Sequence record: PP430141.1
Strand: one strand, 5' to 3'
From: Enterobacteria phage FrSaffron
Length of the DNA: 3,552 nt
The translations under genes were made by a program, and so were the position numbers. Positions 1 through 3,552 of the stretch are shown piece by piece; within the stretch, counting starts at the first letter, position 1, and the number at the start of each line of letters is the position of its first letter. The notes beneath the pieces are model-generated. The model saw nothing but the letters and a program-made list of their open reading frames with translations, had not been told where the DNA came from and did no database searches.

Positions 1-5
1 GGGTG

Positions 6-23
6 GGACCCCTTTCGGGGTCC
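6..23 (+). promoter_or_regulatory. 5'-terminal stable hairpin (replication/packaging element of the plus strand)
   Basis: Seen in sequence: GGACCCC (6-12) pairs with GGGGTCC (17-23) around a UUUC loop (13-16), giving 7 consecutive pairs. The helix can extend with G-U pairs toward 1-5/24-28. Its role is established knowledge for MS2-like phages. Confidence 0.7.
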
Positions 24-115
24 TGCTCAACTTCCTGTCGAGCTAATGCCATTATTTATGTCTTTAGCGAGACGCTACCATGGCTATCGCTGTAGGTAGC
101 CGGAATTCCATTCCT

Positions 116-121
116 AGGAGG
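116..121 (+). promoter_or_regulatory. Shine-Dalgarno sequence of the maturation gene
   Basis: AGGAGG at 116-121, about 8 nt upstream of the ATG at 130. Confidence 0.8.
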
Positions 122-129
122 TTTGACTC

Positions 130-1311
130 ATGCGAGCTTTTAGTGTCCTTGATAAGGAATCCGAGACCTTTGTTCCTTACGTCCGCGTTTACGCTGACGG
201 AGGGATTGAGGATAACTCGTTTTCTCTAAAATACCGTTCGAACTGGACTCCTGGTCGTTTTAAGTCGACTGGGGCCAGAACGAAGCAGTGGCACTACCCG
301 TCTCCCTACTCTAGGGGGGCGCTTAGCGTCACGTCGGTAGATCAAGGCGCCTATAAGCGCTCAGGGTCATCGTGGGGTCGCCCGTACGAGGAGAAAGCCG
401 GTTTTGGCTTCTCGCTCGACGCACGCTCCTGCTACAGCCTCTTCCCTGTTAGTCAGAATCTGACTTACATCGAAGTGCCGCAGAACGTTGCGAATCGGGC
501 GTCGACCGAAGTCCTGAAAAAGGTTACCCAAGGCAATTTCAACCTTGGTGTGGCCTTAGCAGAGGCTAGGTCGACAGCCTCACAACTCGCGACGCAAACC
601 ATTGCGCTCGTGAAGGCGTACACTGCCGCTCGTCGCGGCAACTGGCGCCAGGCGCTCCGCTATCTCGCCCTAAACGAAGATCGAAAATTCCGATCAAAAC
701 ACGTGGCCGGCAGATGGTTGGAGTTGCAGTTCGGCTGGCTACCGCTCATGAGCGATATCCAGGGCGCATATGAGATGCTTACGAAGGTCCACCTTCAAGA
801 GTTTCTTCCTATGAGAGCCGTGCGTCAAGTAGGCACTAACGTCAAGTTAGACGGCCGCTTGTCGTATCCAGCTGCAAACTACCAGACTACGTGCAACATA
901 TCGCGACGAATCGTGATATGGTTTTACATAAACGATGCACGCTTAGCCTGGTTGTCGTCTCTAGGTATCTTGAACCCACTAGGAATAGTGTGGGAAAAGG
1001 TGCCTTTCTCATTCGTTGTCGACTGGCTCCTTCCTGTTGGAAACATGCTCGAGGGCCTTACGGCCCCCGTAGGATGCTCCTACATGTCTGGAACAGTTAC
1101 TGACGTAATAACGGGTGAGTCCATTATAAGCGTTGACGCTCCCTATGGGTGGACAGTGGAGAGACAGGGCACTGCTAAGGCCCAGATCTCAGCCATGCAT
1201 CGAGGGGTACAATCCGTATGGCCAACAACTGGCGTATACGTAAAGTCACCTTTCTCGATGGTCCATACCTTAGATGCGTTAGCATTAATCAGGCAACGGC
1301 TCTCAAGATAG
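130..1311 (+). CDS. mat: Maturation (A / assembly) protein, the pilus-binding minor virion protein
   Basis: 393-aa ORF starting MRAFS..., ending with TAG at 1309-1311. Position, length and sequence match the MS2 A protein as I recall it. Strong SD upstream. Confidence 0.93.
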   Translation: MRAFSVLDKESETFVPYVRVYADGGIEDNSFSLKYRSNWTPGRFKSTGARTKQWHYPSPYSRGALSVTSVDQGAYKRSGSSWGRPYEEKAGFGFSLDARSCYSLFPVSQNLTYIEVPQNVANRASTEVLKKVTQGNFNLGVALAEARSTASQLATQTIALVKAYTAARRGNWRQALRYLALNEDRKFRSKHVAGRWLELQFGWLPLMSDIQGAYEMLTKVHLQEFLPMRAVRQVGTNVKLDGRLSYPAANYQTTCNISRRIVIWFYINDARLAWLSSLGILNPLGIVWEKVPFSFVVDWLLPVGNMLEGLTAPVGCSYMSGTVTDVITGESIISVDAPYGWTVERQGTAKAQISAMHRGVQSVWPTTGVYVKSPFSMVHTLDALALIRQRLSR

Positions 1312-1324
1312 AGCCCTCAACCGG

Positions 1325-1347
1325 AGTTCGAAGCATGGCTTCTAACT
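1325..1347 (+). promoter_or_regulatory. Coat-gene initiator hairpin with the AUG in the apical loop
   Basis: Seen in sequence: AGTTCGAAGC (1325-1334) pairs with GCTTCTAACT (1338-1347) with one C/U mismatch (1329/1343). The loop is AUG (1335-1337), the coat start codon. This matches the known MS2 coat initiation hairpin. Confidence 0.7.
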
Positions 1348-1727
1348 TTACTCAGTTTGTTCTCGTCGACAATGGCGGAACTGGCGACGTGACTGTCGCA
1401 CCAAGCAACTTCGCTAACGGGGTCGCTGAATGGATCAGCTCTAACTCGCGCTCTCAGGCTTACAAAGTAACCTGTAGCGTTCGCCAGAGCTCTGCGCAGA
1501 ACCGCAAATACACCATCAAGGTCGAAGTGCCAAAAGTGGCTACCCAGACCGTTGGTGGTGTAGAGCTTCCTGTAGCCGCATGGCGTTCGTACTTAAATAT
1601 GGAATTAACTATTCCTATTTTCGCAACGAACGCCGACTGCGCGCTTATTGTTAAGGCGATGCAAGGTCTCCTGAAAGATGGAAACCCAATCCCCTCAGCA
1701 ATCGCAGCAAACTCCGGAATCTATTAA
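1335..1727 (+). CDS. cp: Major coat (capsid) protein, also the translational repressor of the replicase gene
   Basis: ATG at 1335 begins MASNFTQFVLVDNGGTGDVTVAPSNFANGVAEWISSNSRSQAYKVTC...SGIY (130 codons). It ends with tandem stops TAA (1725-1727) and TAG (1728-1730). Sequence is recognisably MS2-type coat. Confidence 0.95.
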   Translation: MASNFTQFVLVDNGGTGDVTVAPSNFANGVAEWISSNSRSQAYKVTCSVRQSSAQNRKYTIKVEVPKVATQTVGGVELPVAAWRSYLNMELTIPIFATNADCALIVKAMQGLLKDGNPIPSAIAANSGIY

Positions 1728-1905
1728 TAGATTCCGGCCATTCCAACATGAGGATTACCCATGTCGAAGACAACAAAGAAGTTCAACTCTTTATGTATTG
1801 ATCTTCCTCGCGATCTTTCTCTCGAAATTTACCAATCAATTGCTTCTGTCGCTACTGGAAGCGGTGATCCGCACAGTAGAGACTTTACAGCAATTGCTTA
1901 CCTAA
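1678..1905 (+). CDS. lys: Lysis protein L (single-gene lysis protein), overlapping the coat 3' end and replicase 5' end in the +1 frame
   Basis: 75-aa ORF METQSPQQSQQTPESINRFRPFQHEDYPCRRQQRSSTLYVLIFLAIFLSKFTNQLLLSLLEAVIRTVETLQQLLT. It has a polar, basic N-terminal half and a hydrophobic C-terminal segment (LYVLIFLAIFL...LLLSLL). Coordinates match the MS2 L gene as I recall it. Confidence 0.88.
   Translation: METQSPQQSQQTPESINRFRPFQHEDYPCRRQQRSSTLYVLIFLAIFLSKFTNQLLLSLLEAVIRTVETLQQLLT
1714..1737 (+). repeat. Perfect 24-nt palindrome / RNA hairpin spanning the coat stop codons (coat terminator hairpin)
   Basis: Seen in sequence: CCGGAATCTATTAATAGATTCCGG equals its own reverse complement. As RNA it is a 9-10 bp stem with the coat UAA (1725-1727) and UAG (1728-1730) in and next to the loop. 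Confidence 0.85.
1746..1764 (+). promoter_or_regulatory. Replicase translational operator (TR hairpin; coat-protein binding site and packaging signal)
   Basis: Exact ACATGAGGATTACCCATGT: stem 1746-1750/1760-1764, bulged A1751, pairs 1752-1753/1758-1759, loop AUUA 1754-1757. The replicase AUG (1761-1763) lies within the stem. Identical to the canonical MS2 operator. Confidence 0.92.
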
Positions 1906-3398
1906 GGGATGAGTTGCTTACTAAGCACCCGTCCTTAGGAAACGGTAATGACGAGGCGACCCGCCGGGCTCTAGCTATCGCTAAGCTCCGGGAGGCGAAT
2001 GAGCGTTGCGGCCAGATTAACAGAGAAGGTTTCTTACATGACAAATCCTTGTCATGGGATCCGGATGTTTTACAAACCAGCATCCGTAGCCTAATTGGCA
2101 ACCTTCTCTCTGGCTACCGCTCGTCGTTGTTTGGGCAATGCACGTTCTCCAACGGTGCCTCAATGGGGCACAAGTTGCAGGATGCAGCGCCTTACAAGAA
2201 GTTCGCTGAACAAGCAACCGTTACCCCCCGCGCTCTGAGAGCGGCGCTACTGGTCCGAGACCAGTGTGCGCCGTGGATCAGACACGCGGTCCACTACAAC
2301 GAGTCATATGAATTTAGACTCGTGGTAGGGAACGGAGTGTTCACAGTTCCGAAGAATAATAAAATAGATCGGGCTGCCTGTAAGGAGCCCGATATGAATA
2401 TGTACTTACAGAAGGGAGTCGGTACCTTTATAAGGCGCCGTCTCAAATCTGTGGGTATAGACCTGAATGATCAAACGATCAACCAGCGTCTAGCTCAAAA
2501 GGGTAGCGTAGATGGTTCGTTGGCGACGATAGACTTATCGTCAGCCTCCGACTCCATCTCCGACCGCCTGGTGTGGAGTTTCCTCCCACCTGAGCTATAT
2601 TCATATCTTGACCGCATCCGCTCTCACTACGGAATCGTAGATGGAGAGACGATACGGTGGGAACTATTTTCCACTATGGGTAACGGGTTCACTTTCGAGC
2701 TAGAGTCCATGATATTTTGGGCAATAGTGAAAGCGACCCAGATCCATTTTGGTAACGCCGGAACCATAGGCATCTACGGGGACGATATTATATGTCCCAG
2801 TGAGATTGCACCCCGTGTGCTAGAGGCACTTGCCTACTACGGTTTCAAACCGAATCTTCGTAAAACGTTCGTGTCAGGGCTCTTTCGCGAGAGCTGTGGC
2901 GCGCACTTTTACCGTGGTGTCGATGTCAAACCGTTTTACATCAAGAAACCAGTTGACAACCTCTTCTCCCTTATGCTGATCATGAATCGGCTTAGGGGTT
3001 GGGGAGTTGTCGGAGGTATGTCAGATCCGCGCCTTTATAAGGTTTGGGTACGACTGTCCTCCCTGGTTCCATCGATGTTCTTCGGTGGGACGGACCTTGC
3101 TGCCGACTACTATGTAGTCAGTCCCCCTAATGCGGTCTCAGTTTACACTAAGACTCCATACGGGAGACTACTCGCGGACGCCCGTACCTCGGGTTTCCGT
3201 CTTGCTCGTATCGCAAAAGAGCGTAAGCACTTTAGCGAGAAGCATGACAGTGGTCGCTACATAGCATGGTTCCATACTGGAGGTGAGATCACCGACAGTA
3301 TGAAGTCCGCTGGCGTACGCGTAATGCGTACTTCGGAGTGGCTGACGCCGGTTCCCACATTCCCTCAGGAATGCGGGCCAGCGAGCTCTCCTCGGTAG
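1761..3398 (+). CDS. rep: RNA-dependent RNA polymerase (replicase beta subunit)
   Basis: 545-aa ORF MSKTTKKFNSLCIDLP... ending with TAG at 3396-3398. The catalytic YGDD motif is encoded at 2775-2786 (IGIYGDDIICP). The start codon is embedded in the operator hairpin. Confidence 0.95.
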   Translation: MSKTTKKFNSLCIDLPRDLSLEIYQSIASVATGSGDPHSRDFTAIAYLRDELLTKHPSLGNGNDEATRRALAIAKLREANERCGQINREGFLHDKSLSWDPDVLQTSIRSLIGNLLSGYRSSLFGQCTFSNGASMGHKLQDAAPYKKFAEQATVTPRALRAALLVRDQCAPWIRHAVHYNESYEFRLVVGNGVFTVPKNNKIDRAACKEPDMNMYLQKGVGTFIRRRLKSVGIDLNDQTINQRLAQKGSVDGSLATIDLSSASDSISDRLVWSFLPPELYSYLDRIRSHYGIVDGETIRWELFSTMGNGFTFELESMIFWAIVKATQIHFGNAGTIGIYGDDIICPSEIAPRVLEALAYYGFKPNLRKTFVSGLFRESCGAHFYRGVDVKPFYIKKPVDNLFSLMLIMNRLRGWGVVGGMSDPRLYKVWVRLSSLVPSMFFGGTDLAADYYVVSPPNAVSVYTKTPYGRLLADARTSGFRLARIAKERKHFSEKHDSGRYIAWFHTGGEITDSMKSAGVRVMRTSEWLTPVPTFPQECGPASSPR

Positions 3399-3408
3399 CT
3401 GACCGAGG
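3390..3408 (+). other. Hairpin presenting the replicase stop codon in its loop
   Basis: Seen in sequence: CTCGG (3391-3395) pairs with CCGAG (3403-3407), plus C3390-G3408. The loop TAGCTGA (3396-3402) contains the replicase UAG. Confidence 0.55.
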
Positions 3409-3552
3409 GACCCCCGTAAACGGGGTGGGTGTGCTCGAAAGAGCACGGGTCCGCGAAAGCGGTGGCTCCACCGAAAGGTGGGCGGGCTTCGGCCCAGGGA
3501 CCTCCCCCTAAAGAGAGGACCCGGGATTCTCCCGATTTGGTAACTAGCTGCT
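3399..3552 (+). other. 3' untranslated region, truncated at the window end (lacks the extreme 3' terminus)
   Basis: No ORF; GC-rich and highly structured. It ends ...GGTAACTAGCTGCT, which is the 5' half of the terminal hairpin in MS2 as I recall it. Confidence 0.85.
3431..3495 (+). other. Array of four tetraloop-capped hairpins in the 3' UTR
   Basis: Seen in sequence: GTGCTC-GAAA-GAGCAC (3431-3446), CCGC-GAAA-GCGG (3451-3462), CCACC-GAAA-GGTGG (3468-3481), GGGC-UUCG-GCCC (3484-3495). A further hairpin CCCCG-UAAA-CGGGG lies at 3412-3425. Confidence 0.75.

What the first reader, a model, noticed from the sequence alone, without database searches (positions are those of the whole stretch)
1..3552. 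Nearly complete MS2-group ssRNA phage genome present as DNA
The whole window is collinear with the MS2 gene map (A 130-1311, coat 1335-1727, L 1678-1905, replicase 1761-3398) with no indels that shift any gene boundary. Fiersviridae have no DNA stage, so a DNA copy implies a cDNA or infectious clone, an RNA-seq or metatranscriptome assembly, or a control spike-in, not a genomic locus. It is a known phage, not a new system, but the provenance matters for interpreting everything else.
Basis: partly seen in the sequence, partly recalled or inferred. Interest (0 to 1): 0.35.

Follow-up and report, generated by a model that had tools for sequence, protein, structure and literature searches.

The report
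Known MS2-like RNA phage FrSaffron genome
The window is the already-deposited genome of FrSaffron, a wild MS2-like RNA phage of E. coli, written in DNA letters because it was sequenced through cDNA; it is ordinary, and only the last 17 bases are missing.

Summary
The window holds the four MS2 genes at exactly the MS2 reference coordinates: maturation 130-1311, coat 1335-1727, lysis 1678-1905, replicase 1761-3398. It has no gene-shifting indel, it carries the coat-protein operator hairpin (Rfam RF02359, 60.6 bits), and its 5' and 3' UTR folds are conserved. It starts at genome base 1 and stops 17 nt short of the 3' end, inside the loop of the terminal hairpin.

All four encoded proteins are exact matches to NCBI WZB35602.1-WZB35605.1 of Enterobacteria phage FrSaffron, on a 3552-nt contig, the length of the window. 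FrSaffron (PP430141.1) is a plaque-purified, F-plasmid-dependent isolate from park water with bird waste (Quinones-Olvera et al. 2024). It was sequenced from DNase-treated virion RNA via cDNA.

It is a wild Emesvirus zinderi strain: 94.9% identical to FrHenna and 92.4% to reference MS2. That excludes a laboratory MS2 spike-in. There is no vector or host flank, no hit in plasmids or E. coli genomes, and no replicase relative in 185,579 representative genomes. There is no sign of a chimeric assembly.

Verdict: already known, low interest.

The parts
1..28 (+). 5'-terminal hairpin of the genomic RNA (GGGUGGGACCCC UUUC GGGGUCCUGCUC)
   Evidence: It folds at -21.5 kcal/mol, z = -4.99 against shuffles. 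It is invariant in all 11 aligned strains and is predicted by RNAalifold.
29..123 (+). 5' UTR cloverleaf. A long-distance helix pairs the upstream complementary sequence (29-36, AACUUCCU) with the maturation-gene Shine-Dalgarno region (116-123, AGGAGGUU) and encloses three hairpins.
   Evidence: The RNAalifold consensus pairs columns 29-36 with 117-124 (window 116-123), kept in 11 of 11 sequences. That this helix limits maturation-protein translation to nascent chains is established knowledge for MS2 (Groeneveld, Poot and van Duin), recalled and not tested here. None of these eight pairs varies among the strains, so there is no covariation support.
130..1311 (+). Maturation (A) protein gene, 393 aa, ATG start
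   Evidence: ORF. PF03863 E = 1.2e-201. Exact match to WZB35602.1, FrSaffron maturation protein A. dN/dS 0.045-0.083 against seven strains.
1335..1727 (+). Coat protein gene, 130 aa, ending in the tandem stops TAA TAG
   Evidence: ORF. PF01819 E = 7.4e-68. Exact match to WZB35603.1. dN/dS 0.03-0.05.
1428..1433 (+). 5' arm (GAAUGG) of the long-range Min Jou pairing inside the coat gene
   Evidence: It is the exact reverse complement of 1738-1743 (CCAUUC), and both arms are invariant in the window and 12 relatives. Its role, closing the replicase start until ribosomes read the coat gene, is established knowledge for MS2 and was not tested here. RNAduplex gave shifting registers and did not resolve the helix.
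1678..1905 (+). Lysis (L) protein gene, 75 aa, in the +1 frame, overlapping the coat 3' end and the replicase 5' end
   Evidence: ORF. PF11125 E = 1.3e-38. Exact match to WZB35604.1. The FLSKF segment holding the Leu-Ser dipeptide is present at residues 47-51.
1738..1743 (+). 3' arm (CCAUUC) of the Min Jou pairing, just upstream of the operator
   Evidence: Complementary to 1428-1433 and invariant in all strains.
1746..1764 (+). Coat-protein operator (translational repressor and packaging) hairpin, ACAUGAGGAUUACCCAUGU, containing the replicase start codon
   Evidence: Rfam RF02359 match at 1729-1764, 60.6 bits against a gathering score of 40, E = 4.7e-13. It folds as (((((.((....))))))) at -5.3 kcal/mol, z = -3.3. 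It is identical in all 13 aligned strains.
1761..3398 (+). Replicase (RdRp beta subunit) gene, 545 aa, with YGDD at residues 339-342
   Evidence: ORF. PF03431 E = 7.6e-214. Exact match to WZB35605.1. YGDD located. dN/dS 0.02-0.06 in the non-overlapping part.
3399..3552 (+). 3' UTR with its series of GNRA/UUCG-type hairpins. It is truncated in the loop of the terminal hairpin, so the 3' arm and the ACCCA end (17 nt) are missing.
   Evidence: RNAalifold consensus. The window's 3' UTR is 100% identical over its length to Hu-Sh, DL1 and DL16. MS2 3538-3569 folds at -17.7 kcal/mol, whereas the window's remnant 3538-3552 does not fold. End alignment.

Best explanation
The window is the plus (messenger-sense) strand of Enterobacteria phage FrSaffron (GenBank PP430141.1), written in DNA letters. 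FrSaffron is a wild strain of Emesvirus zinderi, the species of MS2, R17, f2 and M12, in family Fiersviridae.

It works as MS2 does. This part is inferred from conservation of every element and was not tested here:
- The maturation protein binds the F pilus and brings the RNA into the cell. Its translation is limited by the 5' UTR helix that sequesters its Shine-Dalgarno sequence.
- The coat gene is the open ribosome entry site.
- Reading of the coat gene opens the long-range pairing (1428-1433 with 1738-1743) and so allows replicase translation.
- Coat dimers later bind the operator hairpin (1746-1764). This shuts off the replicase and nucleates packaging.
- The overlapping L gene is reached by ribosomes that terminate at the coat stops, and its product lyses the cell.

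The sequence exists as 'DNA' only because virion RNA was reverse-transcribed for Illumina sequencing. The 17 missing 3' bases are a sequencing and assembly loss at the terminal hairpin, not a biological deletion.
For: - Identity: all four proteins are exact, full-length matches to WZB35602.1-WZB35605.1, named FrSaffron by NCBI, on a single contig of 3552 nt, the window length. [quoted passage not shown]
- Independent assembly: contig 14 of the Logan assembly of SRR24145718 is 100% identical to window 1709-3495. That run number lies in the unlisted gap 718-724 of the same BioProject's run series.
- Molecule and method: DNase-treated RNA from twice plaque-purified phage, cDNA, Illumina, then a stranded total-RNA library.
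- Genes and elements.
- Functional genome: dN/dS is 0.02-0.08 in mat, coat and rep against seven strains, and the differences in the sampled 2257-2700 stretch are almost all at third codon positions.
- Placement: 94.5-94.9% identity to the wild strains FrHenna, FrBlood, Hu-Sh, DL1, DL16 and J20, and 92.4-92.5% to the laboratory lineages MS2, ST4 and R17.
Against: The nucleotide record PP430141.1 is not in the local phage collection, so nucleotide identity over all 3552 bases was not checked directly. The exact-gene index returned nothing for the maturation protein, although the protein collection holds it under NCBI; this is a coverage gap of that index, not a conflict. The mechanistic steps are carried over from MS2 literature. 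The UTRs and the operator are invariant or nearly so among the strains, so covariation gives no independent support for the structures (0 and 1 compensatory pairs).
Confidence: 0.97

Rival explanations
1. It is laboratory MS2 used as an internal control, carrier RNA or spike-in that was assembled out of an unrelated library.
For: MS2 is widely used as a process control. One IMG/VR contig (L012) differs from NC_001417 at only 11 positions. MS2-like fragments also turn up on short contigs labelled Klebsiella, E. coli, Vibrio and Salmonella.
Against: The window is only 92.4% identical to NC_001417. Laboratory lineages sit far closer to one another: ST4 98.9%, IMG/VR contig 11 differences. The window falls in the wild clade, and its proteins are exactly those of a named environmental isolate.
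Confidence: 0.01
2. It is a DNA copy: a cDNA or infectious clone in a plasmid, or a copy integrated in a cellular genome.
For: Only that the sequence is written in DNA letters.
Against: The window begins at genome base 1 and ends inside the 3' terminal hairpin, with no vector or host base on either side. There is no megablast hit in 72,556 plasmids or in 5,426 complete E. coli genomes. No replicase relative was found in one genome for each of 185,579 bacterial and archaeal species. The source paper describes RNA extraction with DNase treatment.
Confidence: 0.01
3. It is a chimeric consensus of several co-occurring wild MS2-like strains, as in a metatranscriptome assembly, and not one real genome.
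For: Only 22-25 of its roughly 180 differences from any nearest relative are private to it. The first-round Logan assembly is fragmented, with a contig starting at 1709.
Against: Every wild strain shows the same pattern: 24-54 private sites at 166-194 differences from its nearest neighbour. No segment becomes near-identical to any one relative in 300-nt windows. The more divergent 2257-2700 stretch is hypervariable among all strains. Four-gamete incompatibility shows no dependence on distance (p = 0.10-0.68). The phage was plaque-purified at least twice. An independent run gives the identical 1787 nt.
Confidence: 0.02

Closest known systems
Enterobacteria phage FrSaffron (PP430141.1; proteins WZB35602.1-WZB35605.1)
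   Same: The raw-run assembly from the same BioProject series is 100% identical over 1787 nt.
   Different: Nothing detected. Whole-length nucleotide identity could not be checked, because the record is absent from the local collection.
Enterobacteria phages FrHenna and FrBlood (PP430140.1, PP430139.1), sister isolates from the same study
   Same: Same gene map and coordinates and the same ATG start of the maturation gene. All three records stop within one base of each other in the loop of the 3' terminal hairpin (FrHenna one base earlier than FrBlood and the window).
   Different: 94.9% nucleotide identity. Amino-acid differences: 13 in mat, 2 in coat, 2 in lys and 7-8 in rep. They come from farm animal waste, not park water.
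Escherichia phage MS2 reference (NC_001417.2 / V00642), type strain of Emesvirus zinderi
   Same: Identical gene coordinates, identical operator hairpin and identical Min Jou arms. Amino-acid identity is 96.4% in mat, 98.5% in coat and 96.3% in rep.
   Different: 92.4% nucleotide identity. MS2 starts the maturation gene with GTG, the window with ATG. The lysis protein is 90.8% identical, with changes in the N-terminal part (R4Q, F5S, A14E, T16I, R19F, K23Q) and T68E. MS2 has A at 1744, the window has C.
Wild Emesvirus zinderi strains DL1, DL16, J20 and Hu-Sh-YMS-1704-01
   Same: Same clade: 94.5-94.8% identity. They share the wild-type states at the maturation start, at 1744 and in the lysis N-terminus.
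   Different: About 5% nucleotide divergence, almost all synonymous. Among the 12 strains compared, seven amino-acid states are private to the window: mat S17Y, E25G, N45K and Q130K, coat residue 100 Ala, and rep A222T and Q247K.

Membership tests
Emesvirus zinderi (Fiersviridae) | About 3.6-kb plus-strand genome with the order maturation, coat, replicase, and a lysis gene overlapping the coat end and the replicase start | tested here: met
   ORFs at 130-1311, 1335-1727, 1678-1905 and 1761-3398, identical to the NC_001417.2 annotation.
Emesvirus zinderi (Fiersviridae) | All four proteins belong to the levivirus families (Phage_mat-A, Levi_coat, Phage_MS2_lysis, RNA_replicase_B) | tested here: met
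   All four are above the Pfam gathering scores, with E-values from 1e-38 to 1e-214.
Emesvirus zinderi (Fiersviridae) | Sequence identity to the type strain within the species range. The RdRp-based demarcation of about 80% aa is recalled from the ICTV Leviviricetes revision and was not re-read. | tested here: met
   RdRp is 96.3% aa identical and the genome 92.4% nt identical to NC_001417. GenBank records at the same distance (DL1, DL16) are filed as Emesvirus zinderi.
Emesvirus zinderi (Fiersviridae) | Coat-protein operator hairpin spanning the replicase start codon | tested here: met
   RF02359, 60.6 bits against a gathering score of 40. The fold is confirmed.
Emesvirus zinderi (Fiersviridae) | The genome is single-stranded RNA with no DNA stage | not testable with these tools
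   The sequence letters cannot show this. The source paper reports RNA-type absorbance ratios, DNase treatment and reverse transcription. No DNA-borne copy was found in plasmids, E. coli genomes or representative genomes.
Emesvirus zinderi (Fiersviridae) | Infection through the F (IncF) conjugative pilus | not testable with these tools
   The paper states that three IncF-dependent isolates belong to Emesvirus. FrSaffron is listed on host SVO348 together with the other Fr phages.
Phage FrSaffron (identity with the deposited record) | Encoded proteins identical to the deposited ones, on a contig of the same length | tested here: met
   Four of four exact matches; contig 3552 nt.
Phage FrSaffron (identity with the deposited record) | Nucleotide identity to PP430141.1 over the whole length | not testable with these tools
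   PP430141 is not in the local collection. Only window 1709-3495 was verified as 100% identical, against the Logan assembly of SRR24145718.

The most novel reading that the evidence does not exclude
The wild MS2-like population to which this genome belongs shows an unusual pattern. Strains differ pairwise by about 5%, yet each carries only about 25-55 private sites, and 58% of pairs of informative sites fail the four-gamete test regardless of distance. Two readings remain open. Either recombination among co-circulating ssRNA phages is frequent enough to erase linkage across a 3.5-kb genome, or only a very small set of sites, limited by RNA structure, is free to flip back and forth. Neither is a property of this window in particular.
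Probability: 0.1. Interest if true: 0.3.

Novelty: already known. Interest (0 to 1): 0.05.

Why it matters
It matters mainly for bookkeeping. The window is a complete, self-contained RNA-virus record, not a cellular or DNA-phage locus. Any other first-stage finding in this window (ORFs, hairpins, overlaps) should therefore be read as a feature of a well-studied MS2-type genome. It also shows that the sequence is a wild strain, not the laboratory control strain, which excludes the usual contamination explanation. Nothing here opens a new question.

Tried and rejected
- Laboratory MS2 spike-in: rejected on identity, 92.4% against 98.9% or more among laboratory lineages.
- Plasmid clone or integrated DNA copy: no hits in plasmids, E. 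coli genomes or 185,579 representative genomes, and no flanks.
- Chimeric or mosaic assembly: sliding 300-nt distances, region-wise distance matrices and a permutation test on four-gamete incompatibility gave no signal.
- An apparently divergent segment at 2257-2700: it proved to be hypervariable in all strains, mostly at third codon positions.
- Fetching fr (NC_001333), PP430141 and PP430138 from the local collection: these records are not held.
- Literature search for SRR24145718: no paper names it. It is tied to the study only by its position in the gap 718-724 of the BioProject's run series.
- Exact-gene look-up of the maturation protein: nothing in the contig index, although the protein collection holds it.
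- RNAduplex of the Min Jou arms: inconsistent registers between strains, so it is not used as evidence.
- Covariation support for the UTR structures: none available, because the UTRs are almost invariant.
- Other Rfam families: none matched at E up to 1 on either strand.
Full report
**1. Observation**

The window was read in full and its ORFs were listed.
- 130-1311, 393 aa
- 1335-1727, 130 aa
- 1678-1905, 75 aa
- 1761-3398, 545 aa

These coordinates equal the annotation of the MS2 reference NC_001417.2 and of six other Emesvirus zinderi records. Each product passes the Pfam gathering score of its levivirus family: Phage_mat-A 670.8 bits, Levi_coat 227.1, Phage_MS2_lysis 131.2, RNA_replicase_B 711.6. 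The minus strand has only short mechanical ORFs, the longest 92 aa.

Megablast against 50,697 phage records returns 300 records, all of them MS2-group ssRNA phages. The window aligns in one collinear piece at 94.9% (FrHenna) down to 92.4% (NC_001417). A more sensitive blastn adds only more distant Fiersviridae. In a MAFFT alignment the window needs no indel of its own. It starts at genome base 1 and lacks the last 17 nt.

**2. What it is**

An exact-sequence look-up shows that all four proteins are identical, first to last residue, to NCBI WZB35602.1 (maturation protein A), WZB35603.1 (coat), WZB35604.1 (lysis) and WZB35605.1 (RNA-directed RNA polymerase). All four belong to 'Enterobacteria phage FrSaffron' and lie on one contig of 3552 nt, the length of the window.

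FrSaffron appears in Supplementary Dataset 1c of Quinones-Olvera et al., Nat Commun 2024 (PMC11015023). It is listed as a Fiersviridae isolate from 'Park water with bird waste', accession PP430141.1, run SRR28247438. The paper states that three IncF-dependent isolates belong to Emesvirus and are close to MS2. A later paper names them FrSaffron, FrHenna and FrBlood (PMC12169576).

There is also independent sequence support. The replicase gene is found on contig 14 of the Logan assembly of SRR24145718, which is 100% identical to window 1709-3495. That run is not listed in the paper. It lies in the gap 718-724 of the study's otherwise continuous run series, seven runs for the seven Fr ssRNA phages that the authors say they re-sequenced. 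Assigning the run to this study is an inference. The record PP430141 itself is not in the local collection, so whole-length nucleotide identity was not checked directly.

**3. Provenance and the 'DNA' question**

The paper's methods describe these steps:
- phage purified at least twice from single plaques
- nucleic acid extracted and treated with DNase I
- reverse transcription and second-strand synthesis
- Illumina sequencing, then a second round with a stranded total-RNA kit

So the DNA letters reflect cDNA sequencing and database convention. There is no base of vector or host at either end. There is no megablast hit in 72,556 plasmids or in 5,426 complete E. coli genomes. No replicase relative was found in one genome for each of 185,579 species.

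A laboratory MS2 spike-in is excluded. The window is 92.4% identical to NC_001417. ST4 is 98.9% identical to that reference, and an IMG/VR contig differs from it at 11 positions.

**4. Is it one real genome?**

Only 22-25 of the roughly 180 differences from any nearest relative are private to the window. That could suggest a chimera. Several results argue against it:
- Every wild strain shows the same pattern: 24-54 private sites at 166-194 differences from its nearest neighbour.
- No 300-nt window comes close to identity with any single relative.
- The stretch 2257-2700 lies about 9-10% from every strain, but it is hypervariable between all strains, almost entirely at third codon positions.
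- A permutation test on four-gamete incompatibility shows no distance dependence: 58% of site pairs are incompatible, p = 0.10-0.68.

Together with the plaque purification and the identical independent assembly, a chimera is unlikely.

Selection is strongly purifying in the three large genes: dN/dS is 0.045-0.083 in mat, 0.027-0.050 in coat and 0.023-0.059 in the non-overlapping part of rep. In the coat/lysis overlap, the changes are synonymous for coat and therefore amino-acid-changing for the N-terminal part of L.

**5. How it works**

This section is inferred from conservation of every MS2 element. The functions themselves are established for MS2 and were not tested here.
- **5' end.** The 5'-terminal hairpin (1-28) folds at -21.5 kcal/mol. 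The consensus fold of the 5' UTR pairs 29-36 (AACUUCCU) with 116-123 (AGGAGGUU), the Shine-Dalgarno region of the maturation gene, in all 11 strains.
- **Coat and replicase coupling.** The coat start is followed by the conserved arm GAAUGG (1428-1433). This arm is complementary to CCAUUC (1738-1743), just upstream of the operator.
- **Operator.** The operator hairpin ACAUGAGGAUUACCCAUGU (1746-1764) carries the replicase AUG. It matches Rfam RF02359 at 60.6 bits and is identical in all strains.
- **Replicase and lysis proteins.** The replicase has YGDD at residues 339-342. The L protein keeps the FLSKF segment with the Leu-Ser dipeptide and the hydrophobic C-terminal half.
- **3' end.** The 3' UTR hairpins are conserved. 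The window stops in the loop of the terminal hairpin, which folds at -17.7 kcal/mol in complete genomes.
- **Truncation point.** FrBlood stops at the same base and FrHenna one base earlier. This points to a method-related loss at a stable terminal hairpin.
- **Covariation.** It adds nothing, because the UTRs are nearly invariant (0 and 1 compensatory pairs).

**6. Comparison and membership**

Every sequence-testable defining feature of Emesvirus zinderi is met: gene order, protein families, identity to the type strain and the operator hairpin. RNA nature and F-pilus dependence cannot be read from the sequence and rest on the source paper.

Within the species, the window belongs to the wild clade (FrHenna, FrBlood, Hu-Sh, DL1, DL16, J20) and not to the laboratory MS2/ST4/R17 lineage.

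**7. Verdict**

The window is an already known, deposited genome of a well-understood phage species. Two refinements apply: the strain is the wild isolate FrSaffron, not MS2 proper, and the spike-in and clone options are excluded. Interest is low.

Noticed in passing
window 127-132: The maturation gene starts with ATG (GACTCATG), as in all wild strains, R17 and M12. Only the laboratory MS2 lineage (NC_001417, ST4, and IMG/VR contig L012) has GTG (GACCTGTG). The well-known GUG start of the A gene is therefore a feature of the laboratory lineage, not of the species.
   Followed up: partly
window 54 and 57: Two substitutions private to this strain (T54A, A57T) sit three bases apart at the top of a 5' UTR hairpin that is otherwise invariant in 11 strains. 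They break the top U-A pair and enlarge the loop. The effect is unknown.
   Followed up: no
L004 (NC_001417.2) about 3451-3465: The MS2 reference record reads GTGCGAAAGCGGTCCGG where the window and the six other strains aligned over this stretch read GTCCGCGAAAGCGGTGG (J20 with one substitution in the loop). The non-reference version forms a clean CCGC-GAAA-GCGG hairpin. This looks like a local error in the original reference sequence, not biology.
   Followed up: no
protein clusters (P0007, P0021, P0041, P0044): MS2-like protein fragments are deposited as 'hypothetical protein' or 'coat protein' of Klebsiella pneumoniae (424-nt contig), Escherichia coli (WP_105321765.1, 1599 nt), Vibrio parahaemolyticus (1763 nt) and Salmonella enterica (627 nt). 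The contigs are short, with little room for host flank; their sequences were not read here. They are most likely MS2 control or carry-over contamination in bacterial assemblies, not integrated copies.
   Followed up: partly
whole alignment of window with L001-L010, L012, L029: Homoplasy is pervasive among wild strains. There are 579 variable sites, 102 of them with more than two states. 58% of informative site pairs fail the four-gamete test with no distance dependence, and each strain has few private sites despite about 5% pairwise distance. The choice between recurrent mutation at a small set of free sites and very frequent recombination is not resolved.
   Followed up: partly
window 2257-2700 (replicase): This is a hypervariable stretch of the replicase gene, 8.6-10% divergent from all strains including the closest ones. 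Nearly all changes are at third codon positions, and in this stretch the wild-versus-laboratory clade signal seen elsewhere disappears.
   Followed up: partly
window 1678-1760 (lysis gene N-terminal part): Relative to MS2, the L protein has lost three basic residues in its N-terminal part (R4Q, R19F, K23Q) and also carries F5S, A14E, T16I and T68E. The transmembrane and LS part is unchanged. The N-terminal changes that lie inside the coat reading frame (R4Q to T16I) are synonymous there.
   Followed up: partly
window 1744: The window and most wild strains have C where MS2 has A, immediately 3' of the Min Jou arm and two bases upstream of the operator. This removes the possible U1427-A1744 pair that would extend the long-range helix. 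Rfam's consensus also marks this position as variable.
   Followed up: no
window 1632-1634 (coat residue 100, counting Met1); loci L030-L033: Coat residue 100 is Ala here, Asp in other wild strains and Ser in laboratory strains. The identical coat protein occurs in four listed Logan runs (SRR33038029, SRR33038034, SRR33038150, SRR33038166), on contigs that are only 94-96% identical to the window at the nucleotide level. The coat variant therefore circulates in other wild backgrounds.
   Followed up: partly
window 3552; L001 3551; L005 3546: FrSaffron and FrBlood end at the same base in the loop of the 3' terminal hairpin, and FrHenna ends one base earlier. FrBlood also lacks the first 6 nt. 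These are systematic end losses of the sequencing and assembly method in that study.
   Followed up: yes
L012 (IMGVR_UViG_3300011370_000027): This IMG/VR 'uncultivated viral genome' differs from laboratory MS2 NC_001417 at only 11 positions and has no private site. It is probably the laboratory strain, used as a control or present as a contaminant, and not an environmental virus.
   Followed up: no
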